Part shown: in pieces, positions 3,895 through 30,668 of the stretch | Position numbering within the stretch: position 1 is the stretch's first letter | How the letters are laid out: every line of letters starts with the position of its first letter | Program-made: the position numbers and the translations under genes | Virus record (IMG/VR): IMGVR_UViG_2778261510_000008 | Source: a virus | Taxonomy: Duplodnaviria; Heunggongvirae; Uroviricota; Caudoviricetes | Length of the DNA stretch: 32,030 bases | Strand: one strand, 5' to 3' | Notes under the pieces: generated by a model | The model's database searches: none | The model's input: the letters and a program-made list of their open reading frames with translations, nothing else | Told to the model about the DNA's origin: nothing

Positions 3895-4166
3895 GTATTC
3901 GTATTGAAATTGGCGAACGTTATGTCGTTACCAGTGACAGCTTTCAGTTTATTCTCCACGAGAAAAAGAGAGCGGAAAGCGGTAAAAACGCCGGTCAGGA
4001 ATGGCTGGCGGTGGTTGGTTATTACCCGAAATTAAGCCAGCTCGTTTCCGGCCTGATGCATCACGATATTCTGACCGGAAGCGCAAAGTCTTTTGCTGAT
4101 TTAAACGCGCAGGTTGAGCAACTCAGCAAGCGTTGTTCAGAGGCTTTTGGCTCATATGGCCGTTAA
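3891..4166 (+). CDS. Small early hypothetical protein (P2 orf83 position)
   Basis: 91-aa ORF immediately upstream of and overlapping A. Confidence 0.5.
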   Translation: MSIRIEIGERYVVTSDSFQFILHEKKRAESGKNAGQEWLAVVGYYPKLSQLVSGLMHHDILTGSAKSFADLNAQVEQLSKRCSEAFGSYGR

Positions 4167-6420
4167 AGCCTCCGGGCGTTTTGTCCCTCCGTCAGCATTT
4201 GCCGCAGGCACCGGTAAGACGTTTACCGGTGCTTATGCATGGAACGCGCCACGCGAGGCTGTCGGGCGCGAAAGACCCCTTACACGTGACGAGATGCGTC
4301 AGGTGCAAGGTGTTTTATCCACGATTAATCGCCTGCCTTACTTTTTGCGCTCGCTGTTTACTTCACGCTATGACTACATCCGGCGCAATAAAAGCCCGGT
4401 GCACGGGTTTTATTTCCTCACATCCACTTTTCAGCGTCGTTTATGGCCGCGCATTGAGCGCGTTAATCAGCGCCATGAAATGAACACCGACGCGTCGTTG
4501 CTGTTTCTGGCAGAGCGTGACCACTATGCGCGCCTGCCTGGAATGAATGACAAGGAGCTGAAAAAGTTTGCCGCCCGTATCTCATCGCAGCTTTTCATAA
4601 TGTATGAGGAACTCTGCGATGCCTGGGTGGATGCGCATGGCGAGAAAGAATCGCTGTTTACGGATGAGGCGCAGGCTCACCTGTATGGTCATGTTGCTGG
4701 CGCTGCACGTGCTTTCAATATTTCCCCGCTCTACTGGAAAAAATACCGTAAAGGGCAGATGACCACGAGGCAGGCATATTCTGCCATTGCCCGTCTGTTT
4801 AACGATGAATGGTGGACTCATCAGCTTAAAGGCCAGCGTATGCGCTGGCATGAGGCGTTACTGATTGCTGTCGGGGAGGTCAATAAAGACCGTTCTCCTT
4901 ATGCCAGTAAACATGCCATTCGTGATGTGCGTGCGCGCCGCCAGGCAAATCTGGAATTTCTTAAATCGTGTGACCTTGAAAACAGGGAAACCGGCGAGCG
5001 CATCGACCTTATCAGTAAGGTGATGGGCAGTATTTCTAATCCAGAAATTCGCCGGATGGAGCTGATGAACACCATCGCCGGTATTGAGCGTTACGCTGCC
5101 GCAGAGGGTGATGTGGGGATGTTTATCACGCTGACCGCGCCGTCAAAGTATCACCCAACACGTCAGGTCAGAAAAGGCGAAAGCAAAACCGTCCAGCTAA
5201 ATCACGGCTGGAATGATGAGGCATTTAATCCAAAGGATGCGCAGCGTTATCTCTGCCGTATCTGGAGCCTGATGCGCACGGCATTCAAGGATAATGATTT
5301 ACAGGCCTACGGTTTGCGTGTTGTTGAACCACACCACGACGGAACGCCGCACTGGCATATGATGCTTTTTTGTAATCCACGCCAGCGTAACCAGATTATT
5401 GAAATCATGCGTCGCTATGCGCTCAAAGAGGATGGCGACGAAAGAGGAGCCGCGAGAAACCGTTTTCAGGCAAAACACCTTAACCGGGGCGGTGCTGCGG
5501 GATATATCGCGAAATACATCTCAAAAAACATCGACGGCTATGCACTGGATGGTCAGCTCGATAATGATACCGGTAGGCCGCTGAAAGACACAGCTGCGGC
5601 TGTTACCGCATGGGCGTCAACGTGGCGCATTCCGCAATTTAAAACGGTTGGTCTGCCGACAATGGGGGCTTACCGTGAACTACGCAAATTGCCTCGTGGC
5701 GTCAGCATTGCTGATGAGTTTGACGAGCGCGTCGAGGCTGCACGCGCCGCTGCAGACAGTGGTGATTTTGCGTTGTATATCAGCGCGCAGGGCGGGGCAA
5801 ATGTCCCGCGCGATTGTCAGACTGTCAGGGTCGCCCGTAGCCCGTCGGATGACGTTAACGAGTACGAGGAAGAAGTCGAGAGAGTGGTCGGCATTTACGC
5901 GCCGCATCTCGGCGCGCGTCATATTCATATCACCAGAACGACGGACTGGCGCATTGTTCCGAAAGTGCCGGTCGTTGAGCCTTTGACTTTAAAAAGCGGC
6001 ATCGCCGCGCCTCGGAGTCCTGTCAATAACTGTGGAAAGCTCACCGGTGGTGATCCTTCGTTACCGGCTCCCACACCTTCTGAGCACGCCGCAGCAGTGC
6101 TAAATCTGGTTGATGACGGTGTTATCGAATGGAATGACCCGGAGGTCGTGAGGACGCTCAGGGGCGCATTAAAACACGGGCTGAGAACGCCAAGTCATCA
6201 GCAAAGAAACGGAAGCCCATTAAAACCGCATGAAATAGCGCCATCGGCCAGACTGACCCGGTCGGAACGAATGCAAATTACCCGTATCCGCGTTGACCTT
6301 GCTCAGAACGGTATCAGGCCTCAGCGATGGGAGCTTGAGGCGCTGGCGCGTGGCGCGACCGTAAATTACGACGGGAAAAAATTTAGGTATTTTATAGTTA
6401 ATGAGTGGCCTATTTTCTAG
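4156..6420 (+). CDS. A: Replication initiation protein A (rolling-circle nickase), P2 gpA-like
   Basis: ~754-aa ORF; ATG at 4156 (MAVKASGRF...) inside the longer TTG-initiated ORF 4114..6420; size and position as P2 A. Confidence 0.9.
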   Translation: MAVKASGRFVPPSAFAAGTGKTFTGAYAWNAPREAVGRERPLTRDEMRQVQGVLSTINRLPYFLRSLFTSRYDYIRRNKSPVHGFYFLTSTFQRRLWPRIERVNQRHEMNTDASLLFLAERDHYARLPGMNDKELKKFAARISSQLFIMYEELCDAWVDAHGEKESLFTDEAQAHLYGHVAGAARAFNISPLYWKKYRKGQMTTRQAYSAIARLFNDEWWTHQLKGQRMRWHEALLIAVGEVNKDRSPYASKHAIRDVRARRQANLEFLKSCDLENRETGERIDLISKVMGSISNPEIRRMELMNTIAGIERYAAAEGDVGMFITLTAPSKYHPTRQVRKGESKTVQLNHGWNDEAFNPKDAQRYLCRIWSLMRTAFKDNDLQAYGLRVVEPHHDGTPHWHMMLFCNPRQRNQIIEIMRRYALKEDGDERGAARNRFQAKHLNRGGAAGYIAKYISKNIDGYALDGQLDNDTGRPLKDTAAAVTAWASTWRIPQFKTVGLPTMGAYRELRKLPRGVSIADEFDERVEAARAAADSGDFALYISAQGGANVPRDCQTVRVARSPSDDVNEYEEEVERVVGIYAPHLGARHIHITRTTDWRIVPKVPVVEPLTLKSGIAAPRSPVNNCGKLTGGDPSLPAPTPSEHAAAVLNLVDDGVIEWNDPEVVRTLRGALKHGLRTPSHQQRNGSPLKPHEIAPSARLTRSERMQITRIRVDLAQNGIRPQRWELEALARGATVNYDGKKFRYFIVNEWPIF

Positions 6421-6464
6421 GCTACCATTAATGTCGGGTTTAGATAATGCAATAATTTATTGGC

Positions 6465-6500
6465 AAGGTCTTCAGATTTAACTAAAGACCTTGTGTTTTA
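6465..6500. terminator. Candidate bidirectional hairpin between convergent genes A and the island gene
   Basis: 8-bp inverted repeat aaggtctt / aagacctt (6465..6472, 6485..6492) followed by T-rich gtgttttaattgtttt. Confidence 0.4.
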
Positions 6501-6540
6501 ATTGTTTTCTAGTCTTTTATATGAGCGTAAGTCTATGGGG

Positions 6541-8412
6541 TTACTGTGGTGGAGTCCATATTTTTAATGCGATATTTTTATATGTTTCCCCGCGTGCTGT
6601 AATAGCATTGGCGTTGAATTCAACATATTCTTCAAGATTGATATCGTTATTTGCAGATAAGAATCTTACCAGCTCAGGGTTGTTTTGATAAAAGTTTGCG
6701 CATAATGTCTGGCAAAGAACGTTTTCACCGCTATATACTGTTTTCTTTTCTGAGTACAACTTATCATTTAATGATCTGTTTCTTGAACGGGGAAGCAATA
6801 TCAAACCACCAATCAAGTTTCTCTTCTGCTTGTATTCAGTGTCAGATGAAAAACCGAAGGCTGATGAAGGCATGGTTGTATCATCAATTACTTCGCGAAG
6901 AACATGTTCTATATCAAAAGTTTTCATACCTTTGTCGCGTTGCATATAAACATCAAACCCTACTTTGTTTGTTAGGTTTATCTCGTTTTCAATGTAAGAG
7001 GCGATACGAGCCAGAATATAAAGCATATCTGATCTGGTTTTATTCTCGTACGCCATTTCTGGTATTCTATTAAGTAATGTATAATGCTTGTCCCATTCGT
7101 TTTGGACATAGCTTAACAATGCTGGATAATCTTTCCCTCTAACATCTTTAGCTAAGCTGAATGCAATATCTTTTAAATTGTCATAAGTGTTTGCTTTCTT
7201 CGATACGATTCGACTGGTGAGAATTAGATCAATATACTTAGATATTATTTGGATTTTTTTCTTACGAACATCACGGGTATCTGATAAATCTACAGAAGAT
7301 AGAATTATCATGGTTTGAAAGTTGAATTTTCTAATTCCATTATAGAAAACGTCAGGGTAATCAGTAGTCAGATTTTTCTCAGCATTGGCAATTGTCAAGC
7401 ATAAATTTGCATACTCGGGTATATCTGTTTTTGCAAAGTTATAAAAATCATCGGAAGTAATCAGACCGATATCATGGGTTTTATCTTCAAACCACCGATG
7501 ATAAGAATCATTGATTTTATCAAAATCACCAGGTGCATCGCCTTTATTTTTACCTCTAATAGTGTTTGCCCATTTAGCGCGTAATAAATTCCTGATAAAT
7601 AGAGAATCTCCCTCTGGATCTTTGTCTCTAAGTTTAGACATGGTTTTTACCCATACCTGATGGCATTCTTGACTATCTTCGGGGCTAGTGATTTTTGACA
7701 GAATAAAACCTTTTAATAGTTCAATTGCACCGAGTCTCAAGCCACGGTCATTCATTGTGACAAATACTCTATGCGCTTCTGACTCGCTTGAGACGGATAT
7801 ATCTATTAAAAGAACTTTTTCCATTAAATAATCAATAAAGAAAGAAACTTTTTCTTTTATTGTTGGATCCAAAGCATCCTCAATGGATTTTATTGCCTCA
7901 ATTATTCTTTTATCGCTATCACTAAGATTAGTAATGCTATCTACATCATCTAGTGCGTCTGCAAGACATTTTGCGTTGTCAGTATATTTTGTGAATATTT
8001 CTTTTCTAACTTCGGAAAATTCAATATTGAAATCGCGTTCCCCATAAGAAACACTCCCAATAAAATTTTCTAAAGCCAAAGTGTCTGGAATGTGGTTATC
8101 CTTGATATATCTTTCAAAAAAAACAAGAAGAATAAATATAGACGTGATTCGTTGTTGTCCATCAATCAACGGGCGCTTACCGTTGGTTTCAACCGCCGTA
8201 ATGATAGAACCAAGAAAGTATGGAGGATAAGATGATACATCGCGTCTACCATGAGTAGACTCATAACTCAGTAAGAAAGCATTTTGAATGTCATTTAACA
8301 TTTCAAGAAAATGCCTGCTTTCCCATTTATAATCCCTCTGAAAATATGGTAGTGAGTACTTGCTTTGAAAGCAGGTTTTTAAACTTAGAGTCGATGGGGT
8401 TATATACGCCAT
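6541..8412 (-). CDS. DUF262 (ParB-like, DGQQR motif) + DUF1524-like (His-Me finger) protein; candidate GmrSD-like type IV restriction / anti-phage defence protein in the P2 tin/old hotspot
   Basis: Long ORF 6541..8466; N-terminal motifs YFQRDYKW and LIDGQQRITS; C-terminal FDIEHVL ... NLIGGLILLPRSRNRSLNDK; AT-rich codon usage unlike the phage backbone; ATG at 8412 has AAGGA SD, ATG at 8466 has none. Confidence 0.6.
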   Translation of the reverse strand: MAYITPSTLSLKTCFQSKYSLPYFQRDYKWESRHFLEMLNDIQNAFLLSYESTHGRRDVSSYPPYFLGSIITAVETNGKRPLIDGQQRITSIFILLVFFERYIKDNHIPDTLALENFIGSVSYGERDFNIEFSEVRKEIFTKYTDNAKCLADALDDVDSITNLSDSDKRIIEAIKSIEDALDPTIKEKVSFFIDYLMEKVLLIDISVSSESEAHRVFVTMNDRGLRLGAIELLKGFILSKITSPEDSQECHQVWVKTMSKLRDKDPEGDSLFIRNLLRAKWANTIRGKNKGDAPGDFDKINDSYHRWFEDKTHDIGLITSDDFYNFAKTDIPEYANLCLTIANAEKNLTTDYPDVFYNGIRKFNFQTMIILSSVDLSDTRDVRKKKIQIISKYIDLILTSRIVSKKANTYDNLKDIAFSLAKDVRGKDYPALLSYVQNEWDKHYTLLNRIPEMAYENKTRSDMLYILARIASYIENEINLTNKVGFDVYMQRDKGMKTFDIEHVLREVIDDTTMPSSAFGFSSDTEYKQKRNLIGGLILLPRSRNRSLNDKLYSEKKTVYSGENVLCQTLCANFYQNNPELVRFLSANNDINLEEYVEFNANAITARGETYKNIALKIWTPPQ

Positions 8413-8571
8413 TAATACATCCTTTTGTCTGTAAAGAGCTTCTGTGAGAAGCGCATTATACTGCATTAAGCTGCATTAGTTTTCTACATGTTAATTGATG
8501 TCTACAAAGTAGATTTGACAAGTTTTTGAGGTGGGCGTGCACTTGCATTCAAACCGACCCATGAAGCGGGC

Positions 8572-8590
8572 GGGCGAGGCGGGGAAAGCA
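8572..8590. other. cos site: 19-nt sequence GGCGAGGCGGGGAAAGCAC matching the recalled P2 cohesive end
   Basis: Exact 19-mer located just past Q, where P2 cos lies; surrounded by GC/GT-rich non-coding DNA. Confidence 0.7.
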
Positions 8591-8733
8591 CTGCGCGCTG
8601 GCGGTGGTGCTGATTTTATTTTTTTAGCGTCTCAGCGCGTCGTGATGGCGTTTAGATTGTGCGCCGGGGCGTTAGTGTGTCTGCGGGGTGTTTTGTGCGG
8701 TGGTGAGCGTGTGAGGGCGTGATGACGGGGTGT

Positions 8734-8760: not shown

Positions 8761-9795
8761 TCAGCCGTTGTCAGTGTCCAGTGAGTAGTTTTTAAAGCGG
8801 ATGACCTCCTGACCGAGCCAGCCGTTTATCTCACGGATCCTGTCCTGTAACGGGATAAGCTCATTGCGGACAAAGACCTTTGCCACTTTCTCAATATCAC
8901 CCAGCGACCCGACGTTCTCCGGCTTGCCGCCCATCAACTGAAAGGGGATGCGGTGCGCGTCCAGCAGGTCTGCGGCACTGGCTTTTTTGATATTAAAAAA
9001 ATCGTCCTTCGTCGCCACTTCACTGAGCGGGATAATTTTAATGCCGTCGGCTTTTCCCTGTGGGGCATAGAGAAACAGGTTTTTAAAGTTGTTGCGGCCT
9101 TTCGACTTCACCATGTTTTCGCGAAGCATTTCGATATCGTTGCGATCCTGCACGGCATCAGTGACGTACATGATGTATCCGGCATGTGCGCCGTTTTCGT
9201 AATACTTGCGGCGGAACAGCGTGGCCGACTCATTCAGCCAGGCAGAGTTAAGGGCGCTGAGATATTCCGGCAGGCCGTACAGCTCCTGATTAATATCCGG
9301 CTCCAGCAGGTGAAACACGGAGCCGGGCGTGAAAGGTGTCGGCTCGTTGAAGGACGGCACCCACCAGTAAACATCCTCCTCCACCCCACGGCGGGTATAT
9401 TTTGCCGGTGAGGTTTCCAGTCTGATGACCTTACCGGTAGTGCTGTAACGCTTTTCCAGAAACGCATTACCGAACACCAGAAAATCCAGCACAAAGCGGC
9501 TGAAATCCTGCTGAGAAAGCCACGGATGCGGGATAAATGTCGAGGCCAGAATATTGCGTTTGACGTAAATTGGTGAGCTGTGATGCACGGCAGCACGCAG
9601 GCTTTTTGCCAGACCAGTAAAGCTGACCGGTGGCTCATACCATCTGCCGTTACTGATGCACTCGACGTAATCCAGAATGTCACGGCGGTCGAGTACCGGC
9701 ACTGGCTCACCAAAGGTGAATGCCTCCATTTTCGGGGCGCTGGCGGTCATTTTTTTTGCCGCAGGTTGCTGTGTTTTCCCTTTTTTCTTGCTCAT
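8761..9795 (-). CDS. Q: Portal protein, P2 gpQ-like
   Basis: 344-aa ORF, ATGA overlap with P stop, adjacent to cos; size and order as P2 Q. Confidence 0.9.
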   Translation of the reverse strand: MSKKKGKTQQPAAKKMTASAPKMEAFTFGEPVPVLDRRDILDYVECISNGRWYEPPVSFTGLAKSLRAAVHHSSPIYVKRNILASTFIPHPWLSQQDFSRFVLDFLVFGNAFLEKRYSTTGKVIRLETSPAKYTRRGVEEDVYWWVPSFNEPTPFTPGSVFHLLEPDINQELYGLPEYLSALNSAWLNESATLFRRKYYENGAHAGYIMYVTDAVQDRNDIEMLRENMVKSKGRNNFKNLFLYAPQGKADGIKIIPLSEVATKDDFFNIKKASAADLLDAHRIPFQLMGGKPENVGSLGDIEKVAKVFVRNELIPLQDRIREINGWLGQEVIRFKNYSLDTDNG

Positions 9796-21784: not shown

Positions 21785-22377
21785 TGAAACCTGTTTTTGA
21801 TGAAAATGGGCTGGCTACAGTGCCGGGCGATATGCGTTGTTTTTATTATGATGCTGAAACATCTGAGTATACGGGCTGGTCTGATGAATATATTAATAAT
21901 GGCGTAAGTATGCCCGCCTGTTCCACTGGTATTGACCCGGGCGAAAACATTCCGGGGAAAGTGGCAGTATTTACGGGTAAGGGATGGAGCCATGAAGAAG
22001 ACCATCGCAATGAGACTGTTTACTCAACAGAAAATGGCGCAGCTGTTACAGTGGATTATATCGGTGCCATCAAAAACGGTTATGTCACGCTTTCACCGTT
22101 AACGACATATGATAAATGGGATGGTGAGAAATGGGTGACAGATACTGAGGCACAGCATAACGCCGCAGTAGAAGCAGCAGAAGCACAGCGCCAGTCACTG
22201 ATTGATGCAGCAATGGCTTCCATTAGTCTGATTCAGCTGAAATTACAGGCCGGACGGAAACTGACTCAGGCAGAAACAACCCGACTTAACGCCGTGCTGG
22301 ATTACATTGACGCGGTGACGGCAACAGATACCAGCACCGCGCCGGATGTCATCTGGCCTGAACTGCCGGAGGCGTAG
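21784..22377 (+). CDS. Tail fibre assembly chaperone (gpG/U-like), current orientation
   Basis: 197-aa ORF right after H; C-terminal TSTAPD-x-x-WP motif shared with the convergent ORF. Confidence 0.75.
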
Positions 22378-22777
22378 GCCATTCAATATCGGGTGCTGTT
22401 GAAGTATCAACACGCATCAGCAGCACACGGTATTTCTTCCATTCGGTGAGAGTTGAAGTTTCTTCATCAGTTGCGATATCAGCATCAACAGCATCCTGAC
22501 GCCAGGATATTTCACTGTCAGCTTTTTCCCGTAATTGGGATTTTTTAACTTCAGCAATAGCTATTAATTCCTTTTTGGTCGGCTGAGGAATATCTATCAG
22601 TGCTGGTTTTCCATTCAGTGTTCCAATCTGTTTTCCTGGTGGAATATCCATAAATAACTTTTTATGTTCTTCCTCACTGACTATTACACCATCATCAGGC
22701 CACAGACCTGATGCCTCAAATTTTTCTTTCTCCGATATGGGGAAAAAGCCATTTGCTTTAGCGCTCCATACGTACAT
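22349..22777 (-). CDS. Alternative tail fibre assembly chaperone (U'-like), convergent
   Basis: 142-aa ORF ending in [15 protein letters not shown], like the + strand chaperone; sits inside the invertible segment. Confidence 0.7.
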
Positions 22778-22778
22778 A

Positions 22779-23086
22779 TCAATACCCCACCGCTATAATG
22801 TCCACATTAAATCCCCCGGGACCTGCCTGCCAGATGCTGGCCCCTGTTAATGATTTTGTTTGATGAACAACCGCCACATTTGCTGGCGATAGTGTTTCAG
22901 TTGTTACAGTACCGATATCATTCCAGTTAATTGAGATGGAATAGTTCGTTGTTGTAAACGACCGGGGGAAAGTTATGTGTCTTGCATTGGTGCCAACAGG
23001 AAATCCAAGATAAACACGCTGAATTATCATTCCTCCAGGTAACATAACCCAGTTAGCACCTTCTCCAAAACCAACGTTTATGAAAA
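22779..23086 (-). CDS. Silent alternative tail fibre C-terminal cassette (Sv'-like); expressed only after inversion fuses it to the H constant part
   Basis: Reading frame open from the right crossover site; encodes [14 protein letters not shown]... whose first residues parallel GLGEGA in H; no own start or promoter. Confidence 0.6.
23061..23086. repeat. Right recombination site (gix/cix/hix-like 26 bp)
   Basis: ttctccaaaaccaacgtttatgaaaa; its reverse complement ttttcataaacgttggttttggagaa aligns with 21315..21340. Confidence 0.65.
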
Positions 23087-23140
23087 TGCAGAAATAACGA
23101 GCAAATGGCATCATTCCTGCTTTTGTCAGAGGGATCCACT

Positions 23141-23734
23141 ATGCTTATTGGCTATGTACGCGTGTCAACAAATGACCAGAACACGGAATTGCAGCGTAAC
23201 GCGCTGGAGTGCGCGGGATGTGAGCGGATTTTTGAGGACAAAATCAGCGGCACGAAGTCCGACAGGCCGGGACTGAAAAAACTGCTCAGGACATTATCGG
23301 AGGGGGATACACTGGTAGTCTGGAAGCTGGACCGGCTGGGGCGTAGTATGCGGCATCTGGTCATTCTGGTTGAGGAGTTGCGCGAACGCGGCATTAATTT
23401 TCGCAGCCTGACGGATGCTATTGATACCAGCACGCCGATGGGGCGTTTTTTCTTTCATGTGATGGGTGCCCTGGCTGAAATGGAACGAGAACTCATTGTC
23501 GAGCGGACTCGGGCCGGGCTGGAAGCGGCCAGAGCCAAAGGTCGTATTGGTGGCAGACGACCGAAACTCACCGCGAGTGAGTGGGAGCAGGCCGGGCGTT
23601 TGCTGGCTGCAGGGGAGTCACGTCAACGCGTGGCACTGATTTTTGATATTGGTCTGTCCACGCTCTATAAAAAATTTCCCTCATCAGCGACAAAGAATAA
23701 ATTGTGTCATCCCTTAGCCAACCGGGACAAATAG
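23141..23734 (+). CDS. Serine DNA invertase, Gin/Cin/Hin/Pin family
   Basis: 197 aa from ATG at 23141; N-terminal catalytic motif GYVRVSTNDQ, resolvase fold residues, C-terminal HTH; next to the inverted-repeat sites. Confidence 0.85.
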   Translation: MLIGYVRVSTNDQNTELQRNALECAGCERIFEDKISGTKSDRPGLKKLLRTLSEGDTLVVWKLDRLGRSMRHLVILVEELRERGINFRSLTDAIDTSTPMGRFFFHVMGALAEMERELIVERTRAGLEAARAKGRIGGRRPKLTASEWEQAGRLLAAGESRQRVALIFDIGLSTLYKKFPSSATKNKLCHPLANRDK

Positions 23735-30096: not shown

Positions 30097-30177
30097 TGTT
30101 TTTATTTTATCTGTTTGTTTTATAAGGATAAATTAACTAAAATGGCACCATCAACAAAACCGGAAGAGGTGCTCGCG

Positions 30178-30396
30178 ATGTTTCATTGTCCTTTATGCCA
30201 GCATGCCGCACATGCGCGTACAAGCCGCTATATCACTGACACGACAAAAGAGCGTTATCACCAGTGTCAGAACGTGAATTGCAGCGCCACGTTCATCACT
30301 TATGAGTCGGTACAGCGATACATCGTGAAGCCGGGAGAAGTCCACGCCGTAAGACCGCACCCGTTGCCGTCAGGGCAGCAAATTATGTGGATGTAA
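30178..30396 (+). CDS. ogr: Late gene transcription activator Ogr (zinc finger)
   Basis: 72 aa from ATG at 30178 (MFHCPLCQH...); cysteine pairs CPLC and CQNVNC; last phage gene before attR. Confidence 0.85.
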   Translation: MFHCPLCQHAAHARTSRYITDTTKERYHQCQNVNCSATFITYESVQRYIVKPGEVHAVRPHPLPSGQQIMWM

Positions 30397-30497: not shown

Positions 30498-30524
30498 AAA
30501 AAATAAGCCCGTGTAAGGGAGATT
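30498..30524. repeat. attR core, 27-bp direct repeat of attL
   Basis: Identical to 478..504; overlaps the 3' terminator end of cyaR. Confidence 0.85.
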
Positions 30525-30584
30525 ACACAGGCTAAGGAGGTGGTTCCTGGTACAGCTAGCATTTTATGGGTTATGTTTTTCAGC
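30498..30584 (-). ncRNA. cyaR: CyaR (RyeE) Hfq-dependent sRNA; its 3' end is the P2 integration target
   Basis: Minus-strand sequence GCTGAAAAACATAACCCATAAAATGCTAGCTGTACCAGGAACCACCTCCTTAGCC... ending in a hairpin plus U-run matches recalled CyaR; candidate -10 (30592..30597) and CRP-like site TGTGA-N6-TCTAA (30619..30634) upstream. Confidence 0.75.
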
Positions 30585-30668
30585 GAAACGGATGATAACC
30601 TTAATAAATGCAGCTGTATGTGATCGGTTTCTAAGAATTTTCCATCCGGGAAAAATAATCGAAATTAA

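What the first reader, a model, noticed from the sequence alone, without database searches (positions are those of the whole stretch)
6541..8466. Single-gene DUF262 + DUF1524-like protein: candidate modification-dependent nuclease or novel defence effector
The protein has the N-terminal DUF262/ParB-like signature (YFQRDYKW, then LIDGQQRITS) and a C-terminal region resembling the DUF1524 His-Me finger (FDIEHVL ... NLIGGLILLPRSRNRSLNDK). That is the GmrSD-type architecture of type IV restriction enzymes. No methyltransferase or partner gene is adjacent, consistent with a stand-alone system. The ~300-residue middle region has no motif I recognise and could be a divergent specificity or sensor module, so the protein may not belong to a characterised subfamily.
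Basis: partly seen in the sequence, partly recalled or inferred. Interest (0 to 1): 0.85.

Follow-up and report, generated by a model that had tools for sequence, protein, structure and literature searches.

The report
Prophage-borne GmrSD-like antiphage nuclease gene
This is a real single gene for a GmrSD-family nuclease, carried as swappable cargo in the known defence hotspot of a P2-like prophage; it is an untested rare subtype of a well-known kind of antiphage enzyme, not a new kind of system.

Summary
The ORF and its motifs are real. Pfam finds GmrSD_N/DUF262 (E 4e-31) and GmrSD_C/DUF1524 (E 1.5e-7), both above the curated cut-offs. DGQQR and the E-H…N…N His-Me residues are invariant in 53 homologs.

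The true start is probably M19, giving 623 aa at 6541-8412. The ATG at 8466 lacks a Shine-Dalgarno and overlaps a TATAAT box.

The window is a whole P2-like prophage, and the gene is the only cargo (about 6411-8530, 35% GC against about 55%) between gpA and cos/portal gpQ. That slot is the published P2 defence hotspot where P2 carries old and tin.

The "unknown" middle region is not a new module. A confident AlphaFold model (pLDDT 87.7) matches only DndI, SspE and BrxU in the PDB, and SspE's C-terminal domain aligns over 333 residues.

The best defence-profile hit is HEC-06, a validated and apparently modification-dependent defence, but only at sister-clade scores. An allele is listed in Silas et al. 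2025 as the singleton GmrSD cluster CLS_113, which was not tested.

Most likely function: a stand-alone, NTP-gated nuclease that protects the lysogen from superinfecting phages, probably those with modified DNA. I rate it a new member of a known kind, of modest interest.

The parts
6541..8412 (-). Probable true CDS, 623 aa: GmrSD-like protein made of a DUF262 NTPase, a helical domain and a DUF1524 His-Me nuclease
   Evidence: ORF list. Homolog lengths of mostly 619-639 aa with 97% query coverage. RefSeq WP_001695619.1 and WP_059329802.1 are 623 aa. Shine-Dalgarno AAGGA upstream of 8412. Homology to lambdoid copies ends at 8424-8426.
8413..8466 (-). Eighteen-codon extension of the mechanical ORF; more likely the 5' leader and promoter (perfect TATAAT at 8455-8460) than coding sequence
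   Evidence: Sequence read. Not conserved in the Morganella or Cronobacter copies. One RefSeq record does annotate the 641-aa form, so this is not settled.
7702..8364 (-). GmrSD_N / DUF262 (ParB-like NTPase) domain
   Evidence: Pfam PF03235, E 4.4e-31, 109 bits.
8149..8163 (-). DGQQR nucleotide-hydrolysis motif (residues 84-88 of the 623-aa form)
   Evidence: String match. D84, G85, Q86, Q87 and R88 are invariant in 53 homologs. The equivalent Q79A and R80A mutations abolish HEC-06 defence (bioRxiv 10.1101/2024.01.29.577857).
7069..7701 (-). All-helical middle domain (about residues 238-448) not covered by Pfam; the family-typical helical domain
6586..7068 (-). GmrSD_C / DUF1524 His-Me finger nuclease domain
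   Evidence: Pfam PF07510, E 1.5e-7, 31.8 bits against a cut-off of 23. The model shows a beta-beta-alpha element: strands 499-503 and 537-541, helix 542-548.
6904..6909 (-). E502-H503 catalytic dyad (FDIEH)
   Evidence: Invariant in 53 homologs. The equivalent E471A and H472A mutations abolish HEC-06 defence.
6769..6798 (-). LLPRSRNRSL segment carrying the invariant N545 (putative metal-binding Asn of the His-Me finger)
   Evidence: Invariant L539, L540, R542, S543, N545, R546, S547 and L548. It aligns with the DndI and SspE nuclease motif.
6451..6506 (.). Inverted repeat between the convergent gpA and cargo genes; a likely bidirectional terminator
   Evidence: Inverted repeat I2; sequence read. 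Function is inferred.
6411..8530 (.). Variable cargo segment of the P2 hotspot
   Evidence: P2-backbone homology ends at 6410 and resumes at 8525-8538 when compared with P2-family genomes carrying other cargo. GC trough. The flanks occur in 2154 of 5426 E. coli genomes, the cargo in 8.
8573..8591 (+). P2-type cos cohesive-end sequence GGCGAGGCGGGGAAAGCAC
   Evidence: Exact single match, none in 100 shuffles. Its identity as the P2 cos end is from my own knowledge. That cos lies between gpA and gpQ next to the hotspot is stated in PMC9122126.
4114..6420 (+). P2 gpA replication endonuclease (left hotspot anchor)
   Evidence: RefSeq annotation of the 99.6%-identical locus.
8761..9795 (-). P2 gpQ portal protein (right hotspot anchor)
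   Evidence: RefSeq annotation.

Best explanation
The gene encodes a single-polypeptide GmrSD-like antiphage nuclease. It is carried as a self-contained cargo gene in the cos-proximal gpA-gpQ defence hotspot of a P2-like prophage, replacing P2's old and tin genes. Shown: the protein has an N-terminal DUF262 ParB-like NTPase with DGQQR, a conserved helical domain, and a C-terminal DUF1524 His-Me nuclease with E502-H503, N532 and N545. It has no partner gene. It moves as a single-gene cassette between phage hotspots. Inferred: it is expressed from its own promoter in the lysogen, probably works as a dimer like BrxU, SspE and DndI, and uses nucleotide binding and hydrolysis to gate the nuclease. 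It would then nick or cut the DNA of superinfecting phages while sparing host and P2 DNA. The most likely non-self mark is a phage DNA hypermodification, such as the hmC or glucosyl-hmC of T-even phages, which would make it a type IV (modification-dependent) restriction enzyme.
Against: No experiment exists for this subtype; it is the singleton CLS_113 and was untested in Silas et al. 2025. Similarity to HEC-06 profiles is only 100-150 bits, against 200-680 bits within its own family. By fold and by sequence the nearest solved relatives are the phosphorothioate-reading nickases DndI and SspE rather than the type IV enzyme BrxU. The match to PADLOC's mREase_IV model is marginal: 24 bits, N-terminus only. 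The promoter is only a perfect -10 box with a poor -35, and the consensus scan did not report it. Two of ten E. coli copies are disrupted by IS elements.
Confidence: 0.65

Rival explanations
1. It is a GmrSD-like defence nuclease whose trigger is not a cytosine hypermodification. It might read another phage feature, such as a different base or backbone modification, a DNA structure or a phage protein. It might alternatively act as an abortive-infection nuclease that also damages host DNA once activated.
For: It forms a distinct clade that scores only at sister-clade level against HEC-06, and barely against the classical GmrSD and BrxU models. The GmrSD family is extremely diverse, and only 8 of 15 tested enterobacterial systems acted on T-even phages (PMC12373910). 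Payne et al. report that the HEC-06 and BrxU phage ranges differ. [quoted passage not shown]
Against: Every stand-alone (partner-less) family member covered in the papers read here that had a defined substrate targets modified DNA. A constitutively expressed prophage gene must spare unmodified host and P2 DNA.
Confidence: 0.2
2. It is an SspE/DndI-type nickase that depends on host phosphorothioate (PT) DNA modification to tell self from non-self.
For: The closest solved structures by fold and by sequence are DndI (9JFL) and SspE. P22 and Q25 match the PT-patch residues P23 and Q26 of DndI.
Against: No dnd or ssp genes occur in the prophage or within 6-10 kb of seven homologs. The gene travels alone on phages between genera, where no PT partner can be guaranteed. 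The PT-reader tyrosine (DndI Y25, SspE Y30) is replaced by a Phe that is invariant in this family. DndI without PT is toxic, which is incompatible with a stand-alone cargo gene.
Confidence: 0.07
3. It is not a host-protecting defence gene. It could be a selfish or decaying cargo gene, or a nuclease used by the phage against competing mobile elements such as P4-type satellites or plasmids.
For: It is rare, present in 8 of 2154 P2-hotspot-bearing E. coli genomes. Two further copies are disrupted by IS5 and IS903B. Rousset et al. note that some hotspot cargo has non-defence functions.
Against: The full-length ORF and all catalytic residues are conserved from E. coli to Pseudomonas and Lysobacter. 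It is repeatedly placed in defence hotspots and islands. Homologous families are proven defences.
Confidence: 0.08

Closest known systems
HEC-06 (PADLOC; Payne et al. 2024, bioRxiv 10.1101/2024.01.29.577857)
   Same: Single-protein DUF262 + helical linker + DUF1524 architecture. Both have DGQQR and an E-H nuclease dyad, which are essential in HEC-06. HEC-06 is the best-scoring defence profile for this protein, at 1e-37. It is an antiphage defence that blocks T4, and a distant HEC-06 homolog is modification-dependent.
   Different: The score is only 128 bits, mostly over the N-terminal 270 residues, and no family relative exceeds 151 bits, so this is a sister clade and not a member. HEC-06 was found embedded in Hma systems, whereas this gene is prophage-hotspot cargo. 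The nuclease motif reads EHVL here and EHICP in HEC-06.
DndI (PDB 9JFL) and SspE (6JIV, 7DRS, 7DRI), the phosphorothioate-sensing DUF262-DUF1524 nickases
   Different: Identity is about 13%. There is no dnd or ssp partner. The PT-reader Tyr is an invariant Phe here. The gene travels alone on phages.
GmrSD (E. coli CT596 / Eco94) and BrxU, the type IV restriction enzymes for hmC and glucosyl-hmC DNA
   Same: Same two Pfam domains, which are named after GmrSD. Single-chain enzymes that work without a partner gene (BrxU is encoded within a BREX locus but acts alone).
P2 old and tin, and the other cargo of the P2 gpA-gpQ hotspot (Rousset et al. 2022, PMC9122126)
   Same: Same genomic slot, next to cos. 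The cargo is AT-rich and self-contained. Its presumed role is to protect the lysogen from other phages; that tin also excludes T-even phages is from my own knowledge.
   Different: The proteins and mechanisms are unrelated. A DUF262 protein is not among the systems discussed or tested in that paper's main text.

Membership tests
GmrSD-like superfamily (DUF262 + DUF1524 single-chain nucleases) | N-terminal GmrSD_N/DUF262 domain | tested here: met
   PF03235, 109 bits against a cut-off of 33.2, E 4.4e-31.
GmrSD-like superfamily (DUF262 + DUF1524 single-chain nucleases) | DGQQR nucleotide-hydrolysis motif | tested here: met
   Residues 84-88; invariant in 53 homologs.
GmrSD-like superfamily (DUF262 + DUF1524 single-chain nucleases) | C-terminal GmrSD_C/DUF1524 His-Me finger with a (D/E)H dyad and conserved Asn residues | tested here: met
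   PF07510, 31.8 bits against a cut-off of 23. E502, H503 and N545 are invariant and N532 nearly so. A beta-beta-alpha element is present in the model.
GmrSD-like superfamily (DUF262 + DUF1524 single-chain nucleases) | Overall fold, including the helical domain between the two Pfam domains | tested here: met
   The only significant PDB fold matches are DndI, SspE and BrxU.
GmrSD-like superfamily (DUF262 + DUF1524 single-chain nucleases) | NTPase and nuclease activities; antiphage phenotype | not testable with these tools
   Needs cloning, plaque assays and biochemistry.
Classical GmrSD (CT596/Eco94 clade; glucosyl-hmC-specific, inhibited by T4 Ip1) | Close sequence relationship to the CT596/Eco94 enzymes | tested here: not met
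   PADLOC mREase_IV matches at only 24 bits over residues 26-114; that this model represents classical GmrSD is my assumption. The protein is in a different cluster (CLS_113 against CLS_006) in Silas et al..
BrxU (HEC-05) | BrxU-type sequence with the RLFDS motif; embedded in a BREX, Hma or type I RM locus | tested here: not met
   HEC-05 scores 20.8 bits over 15 residues. RLFDS is absent. The neighbours are the P2 gpA and gpQ genes.
HEC-06 | Full-length, high-scoring match to the HEC-06 profiles | tested here: inconclusive
   HEC-06 is the best family, but at 128 bits with the best-scoring stretch covering profile positions 14-275 of 558 (a second, unlisted stretch also matched). Relatives reach at most 151 bits, some of them full length. 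This reads as a sister clade.
SspE / DndI (PT-sensing) | Genetic linkage to sspABCD or dndBCDE PT-modification genes | tested here: not met
   None in the 32-kb window or in seven homolog contexts.
SspE / DndI (PT-sensing) | PT-reader tyrosine (SspE Y30, DndI Y25) | tested here: not met
   The aligned residue is F24, invariant in the family. The hydrophobic character is retained, so this is weak evidence.
P2 gpA-gpQ hotspot cargo (Rousset 2022) | Variable segment between gpA and cos/gpQ of a P2-like prophage | tested here: met
   PMC9122126.

The most novel reading that the evidence does not exclude
This clade folds most like the phosphorothioate-reading nickases DndI and SspE, yet it travels alone on phages without any modification partner. 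It may therefore use a recognition logic not yet described for the family. It could read a phage DNA mark other than hmC or glucosyl-hmC, or use the NTPase switch to distinguish invading from resident DNA without any modification. It might also be the unknown target of one of the orphan T-even internal proteins.
Probability: 0.15. Interest if true: 0.55.

Novelty: new member of a known kind. Interest (0 to 1): 0.3.

Why it matters
If active, this gene adds one more specificity variant to the GmrSD family, which Silas et al. [quoted passage not shown] It is also a clean example of a single-gene defence cassette moving between the P2 hotspot, the lambdoid replication-nin slot and chromosomal islands. 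In practice, lysogens carrying it may resist therapeutic T4-like phages. It does not open a new class of mechanism.

Tried and rejected
- **NCBIfam:** no hit.
- **PHROGs:** only an unknown-function family, phrog_21165.
- **Promoter scan:** the consensus scan found nothing upstream of the gene. By eye I found a perfect TATAAT with a poor -35, and a weak TTGTCA-17-TCAATT.
- **Second defence locus:** I suspected the low-GC dip at 22-23 kb was the P2 Z/fun slot. It is a tail-fibre invertible segment with an invertase.
- **Antisense 140-aa ORF (6651-7073, +):** rejected as a gene because it is not conserved in homologs.
- **Flanking repeats:** none convincing around the cargo.
- **RNA genes:** no Rfam family in the cargo and no tRNA in the window.
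- **PADLOC 'Orf5':** I could not establish what these models stand for. The term is absent from the DndI and HEC papers.
- **WP_001695619:** not found in the Silas supplement; a second allele, WP_059329802, was found.
- **Rousset 2022 and the 2026 P2/P4 preprint:** their main texts do not mention DUF262 or GmrSD.

Full report
**Observation.** The minus-strand ORF at 6541..8466 (641 codons) exists and carries the quoted motifs. It lies in a sharp GC trough: gene GC is 0.35 and GC3 is 0.30, against 0.53-0.57 for the flanking gpA, Q and P genes. Pfam matches GmrSD_N/DUF262 (PF03235, residues 35-255, E 4.4e-31, 109 bits against a cut-off of 33.2). It also matches GmrSD_C/DUF1524 (PF07510, residues 467-627, E 1.5e-7, 31.8 bits against 23).

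**Start codon.** The start is probably M19 (ATG at 8412), giving 623 aa.
- An AAGGA Shine-Dalgarno sits 7 nt upstream of 8412. The ATG at 8466 has none and overlaps a perfect TATAAT at 8455-8460.
- Nearly all full-length homologs listed are 619-639 aa and cover 97% of the 641-aa query.
- Nucleotide homology to the Morganella and Cronobacter copies stops at 8424-8426.
- RefSeq aa in two records and 641 aa in one.

**Context.** The window is an entire P2-like prophage. It runs from the integrase (584-1597), C-type repressor and Cox through the structural genes to Ogr (30115-30396). A host CyaR sRNA and a U32 peptidase gene lie at the right border. The gene lies between the replication endonuclease gpA (4114-6420, +) and the portal gene gpQ (8761-9795, -). 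The 19-nt P2 cohesive-end sequence is at 8573-8591 (its identity as cos is from my own knowledge).

Backbone homology to P2-family genomes with other cargo ends at 6410 and resumes at 8525-8538. The variable cargo is therefore about 6411-8530 and contains only this gene. Among 5426 complete E. coli genomes, 2154 match the query (its conserved flanks are the ends of gpA and the gpQ side), yet only 8 carry this cargo intact. One further copy is interrupted by IS5 and one is truncated by IS903B.

This slot is the cos-proximal gpA-gpQ hotspot described by Rousset et al. 2022. P2 itself carries old and tin there, and 1,650 gene arrangements were counted (PMC9122126).

**The protein.** An alignment of 53 homologs (51-85% identity) shows several invariant features:
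- the YFQR-Y-W box;
- D84-G85-Q86-Q87-R88;
- the FVTMNDRGLRL segment;
- E502-H503;
- the LLPRSRNRSL segment with N545;
- many residues in the region between the two Pfam domains.

AlphaFold2 on that alignment gives a confident model (mean pLDDT 87.7). It has a mixed alpha/beta N-terminal domain, a long all-helical region (about 240-480, pLDDT mostly 85-98), and a beta-beta-alpha element at 499-548.

The 7DRI construct lacks the DUF262 domain, and the Pfam DUF1524 region here is only about 160 residues. An alignment of 333 residues must therefore include most of the middle helices. A PADLOC Orf5 profile also aligns colinearly over residues 36-637. About 300 clusters at 50% identity align as a single full-length stretch at E <= 1e-30. 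The middle region is thus the helical domain common to the family, not an unrecognised new module.

**Placement within the family.**
- PADLOC's best hits are HEC-06 (1e-37, 128 bits), then Orf5, SspE, a marginal mREase_IV (24 bits) and HEC-05/BrxU (21 bits).
- Ten relatives spread across the family also hit HEC-06 best, but never above 151 bits. Within-family scores are 200-680 bits. I read this as a sister clade of HEC-06.
- By sequence, the closest solved protein is DndI (E 2.7e-14 with the family profile).
- BrxU's RLFDS motif is absent.
- The tyrosine that reads phosphorothioate in DndI (Y25) and SspE (Y30) aligns with F24, which is invariant here.

**What is known about relatives.**
- HEC-06 protects E. 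coli, and it loses protection when DGQQR (Q79A, R80A) or the EH dyad (E471A, H472A) is mutated (bioRxiv 10.1101/2024.01.29.577857).
- HEC-06 blocks T4. A 22%-identical homolog restricts T-even phages but not the cytosine-unmodified T4-GT7 (PMC12366544).
- DndI and SspE are NTPase-gated nickases that read host phosphorothioate marks (PMC11662687).
- Silas et al. 2025 clustered enterobacterial GmrSD-family proteins, examined CLS_001-020 and tested 15 systems, of which 8 restricted T-even phages (PMC12373910).
- The E. coli KSC9 allele of this protein (WP_059329802, 99.3% nucleotide identity) appears in their Supplementary Dataset 6 as CLS_113, a singleton outside the tested set. The subtype is therefore catalogued but untested.

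**Mobility and partners.** The same single gene was found in these settings:

| Host or source | Identity to this protein | Setting |
|---|---|---|
| Serratia | 74% | P2 gpQ-gpA slot |
| IMG/VR viral contigs (5 of 17 loci) | 74-100% | P2 gpQ-gpA slot |
| Morganella | 76% | lambdoid prophage, between replication genes and the nin/Q region |
| Cronobacter | 78% | lambdoid prophage, same position |
| Aeromonas | 60% | end of a prophage |
| Pseudomonas | 55% | island with a reverse transcriptase, an HTH gene, AbiTii and a Dam methylase |
| Lysobacter | 55% | chromosomal, beside a divergent HTH gene |

None of these contexts has dnd, ssp, BREX or a cognate methyltransferase. In IMG/VR locus L018 the gene is 99% identical while the portal (79%), terminase (88%) and integrase (52%) are much more diverged. 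That indicates recent cassette exchange between distinct P2-like backbones, in line with the rapid swapping described for P2 and P4 hotspots (bioRxiv 10.64898/2026.02.27.708500).

**Mechanism.**
- Shown: the domain architecture, the catalytic motifs, the fold, the stand-alone status, the hotspot location and the phage-to-phage mobility.
- Inferred: expression from its own promoter in the lysogen, dimerisation, and NTP-gated nuclease action on incoming phage DNA.
- Also inferred: the non-self signal is a phage DNA hypermodification. A partner-less nuclease that a prophage expresses constitutively must spare unmodified host and P2 DNA, and the functionally tested stand-alone relatives (GmrSD, BrxU, HEC-06 and a distant HEC-06 homolog) act on T-even or modified-DNA phages. 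I give the full statement a confidence of about 0.65.

The rival explanations are a different trigger or abortive-infection logic (0.2), PT dependence like SspE and DndI (0.07), and a non-defence or decaying gene (0.08).

**Verdict.** However, the architecture, fold, motifs and genomic slot are all of known kinds, and the middle region is not novel. I rate this a new member of a known kind with interest 0.3. The most novel reading not excluded is a new recognition logic in a clade that resembles the PT readers but lacks a partner (probability about 0.15).

Noticed in passing
window 22349-23734: Tail-fibre assembly gene (Caudo_TAP, 22349-22777, -), an alternative fibre C-terminus (22779-23114, -) and a Hin/Gin-type resolvase/invertase (23105-23734, +) lie downstream of the tail-fibre genes. 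This looks like an invertible host-range switching segment, which P2 itself lacks as far as I recall. It explains the second low-GC dip.
   Followed up: partly
window 30501-30586 (-): Host CyaR/RyeE sRNA (Rfam 100.7 bits) lies between the prophage ogr gene and a U32 peptidase gene. The prophage right border is therefore at the cyaR-adjacent attachment site.
   Followed up: partly
RefSeq records NZ_AP045764 and NZ_CP074028 (loci L012, L013); by matching hit coordinates also NZ_AP045771, NZ_CP116981, NZ_CP133453, NZ_CM188245 and NZ_CP062211: In the two records inspected the chromosome sequence begins exactly at base 1 of the P2 gpA 'replication endonuclease' gene, and five more records have their hit at the same position (2145). 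Start-fixing software apparently mistook gpA for a replication initiator, so the prophage is split across the record origin.
   Followed up: no
proteins P0135, P0231 and P0270 (distant family members, 724-905 aa): Some relatives of 27-30% identity carry C-terminal extensions that match PADLOC candidate models PDC-S11, PDC-S14 and DUF3780, and the tail of an orphan methyltransferase model. This suggests fused accessory domains in part of the family.
   Followed up: no
L004 9383-9748; L007 9553-9795: A small HTH gene sits immediately upstream of, or divergent from, the homolog in Pseudomonas alloputida and Lysobacter. It may be a regulator. No such gene is present in the P2 cassette.
   Followed up: no
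L004 and L007 gene copies: The family stays AT-rich (43-45% GC) even in the Pseudomonas and Lysobacter copies, whose hosts are GC-rich as far as I recall. An H-NS-like gene sits next to the Aeromonas copy (L008 9499-9945).
   Followed up: no
NZ_CM168023 (hit H5); NZ_CP074028 (L013 2386-4475): Two E. coli copies are inactivated. One has an IS5 insertion. The other is truncated by IS903B, with loss of the rest of the prophage, and the remnant is annotated 'HNH endonuclease family protein'.
   Followed up: partly
window 8531-8722 (+): A 63-codon GTG ORF lies over the GC-rich cos region. A 61-aa 'hypothetical protein' (WP_153071063.1) is annotated at about the same place in one RefSeq record. It is probably not a gene.
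   Followed up: no
L018 (IMGVR_UViG_2724679272_000004): This P2-like phage carries a 99%-identical copy of the gene, but its portal is only 79%, its terminase 88% and its integrase 52% identical to those of the window. This is a clear case of hotspot cargo exchange between different P2-like backbones.
   Followed up: partly
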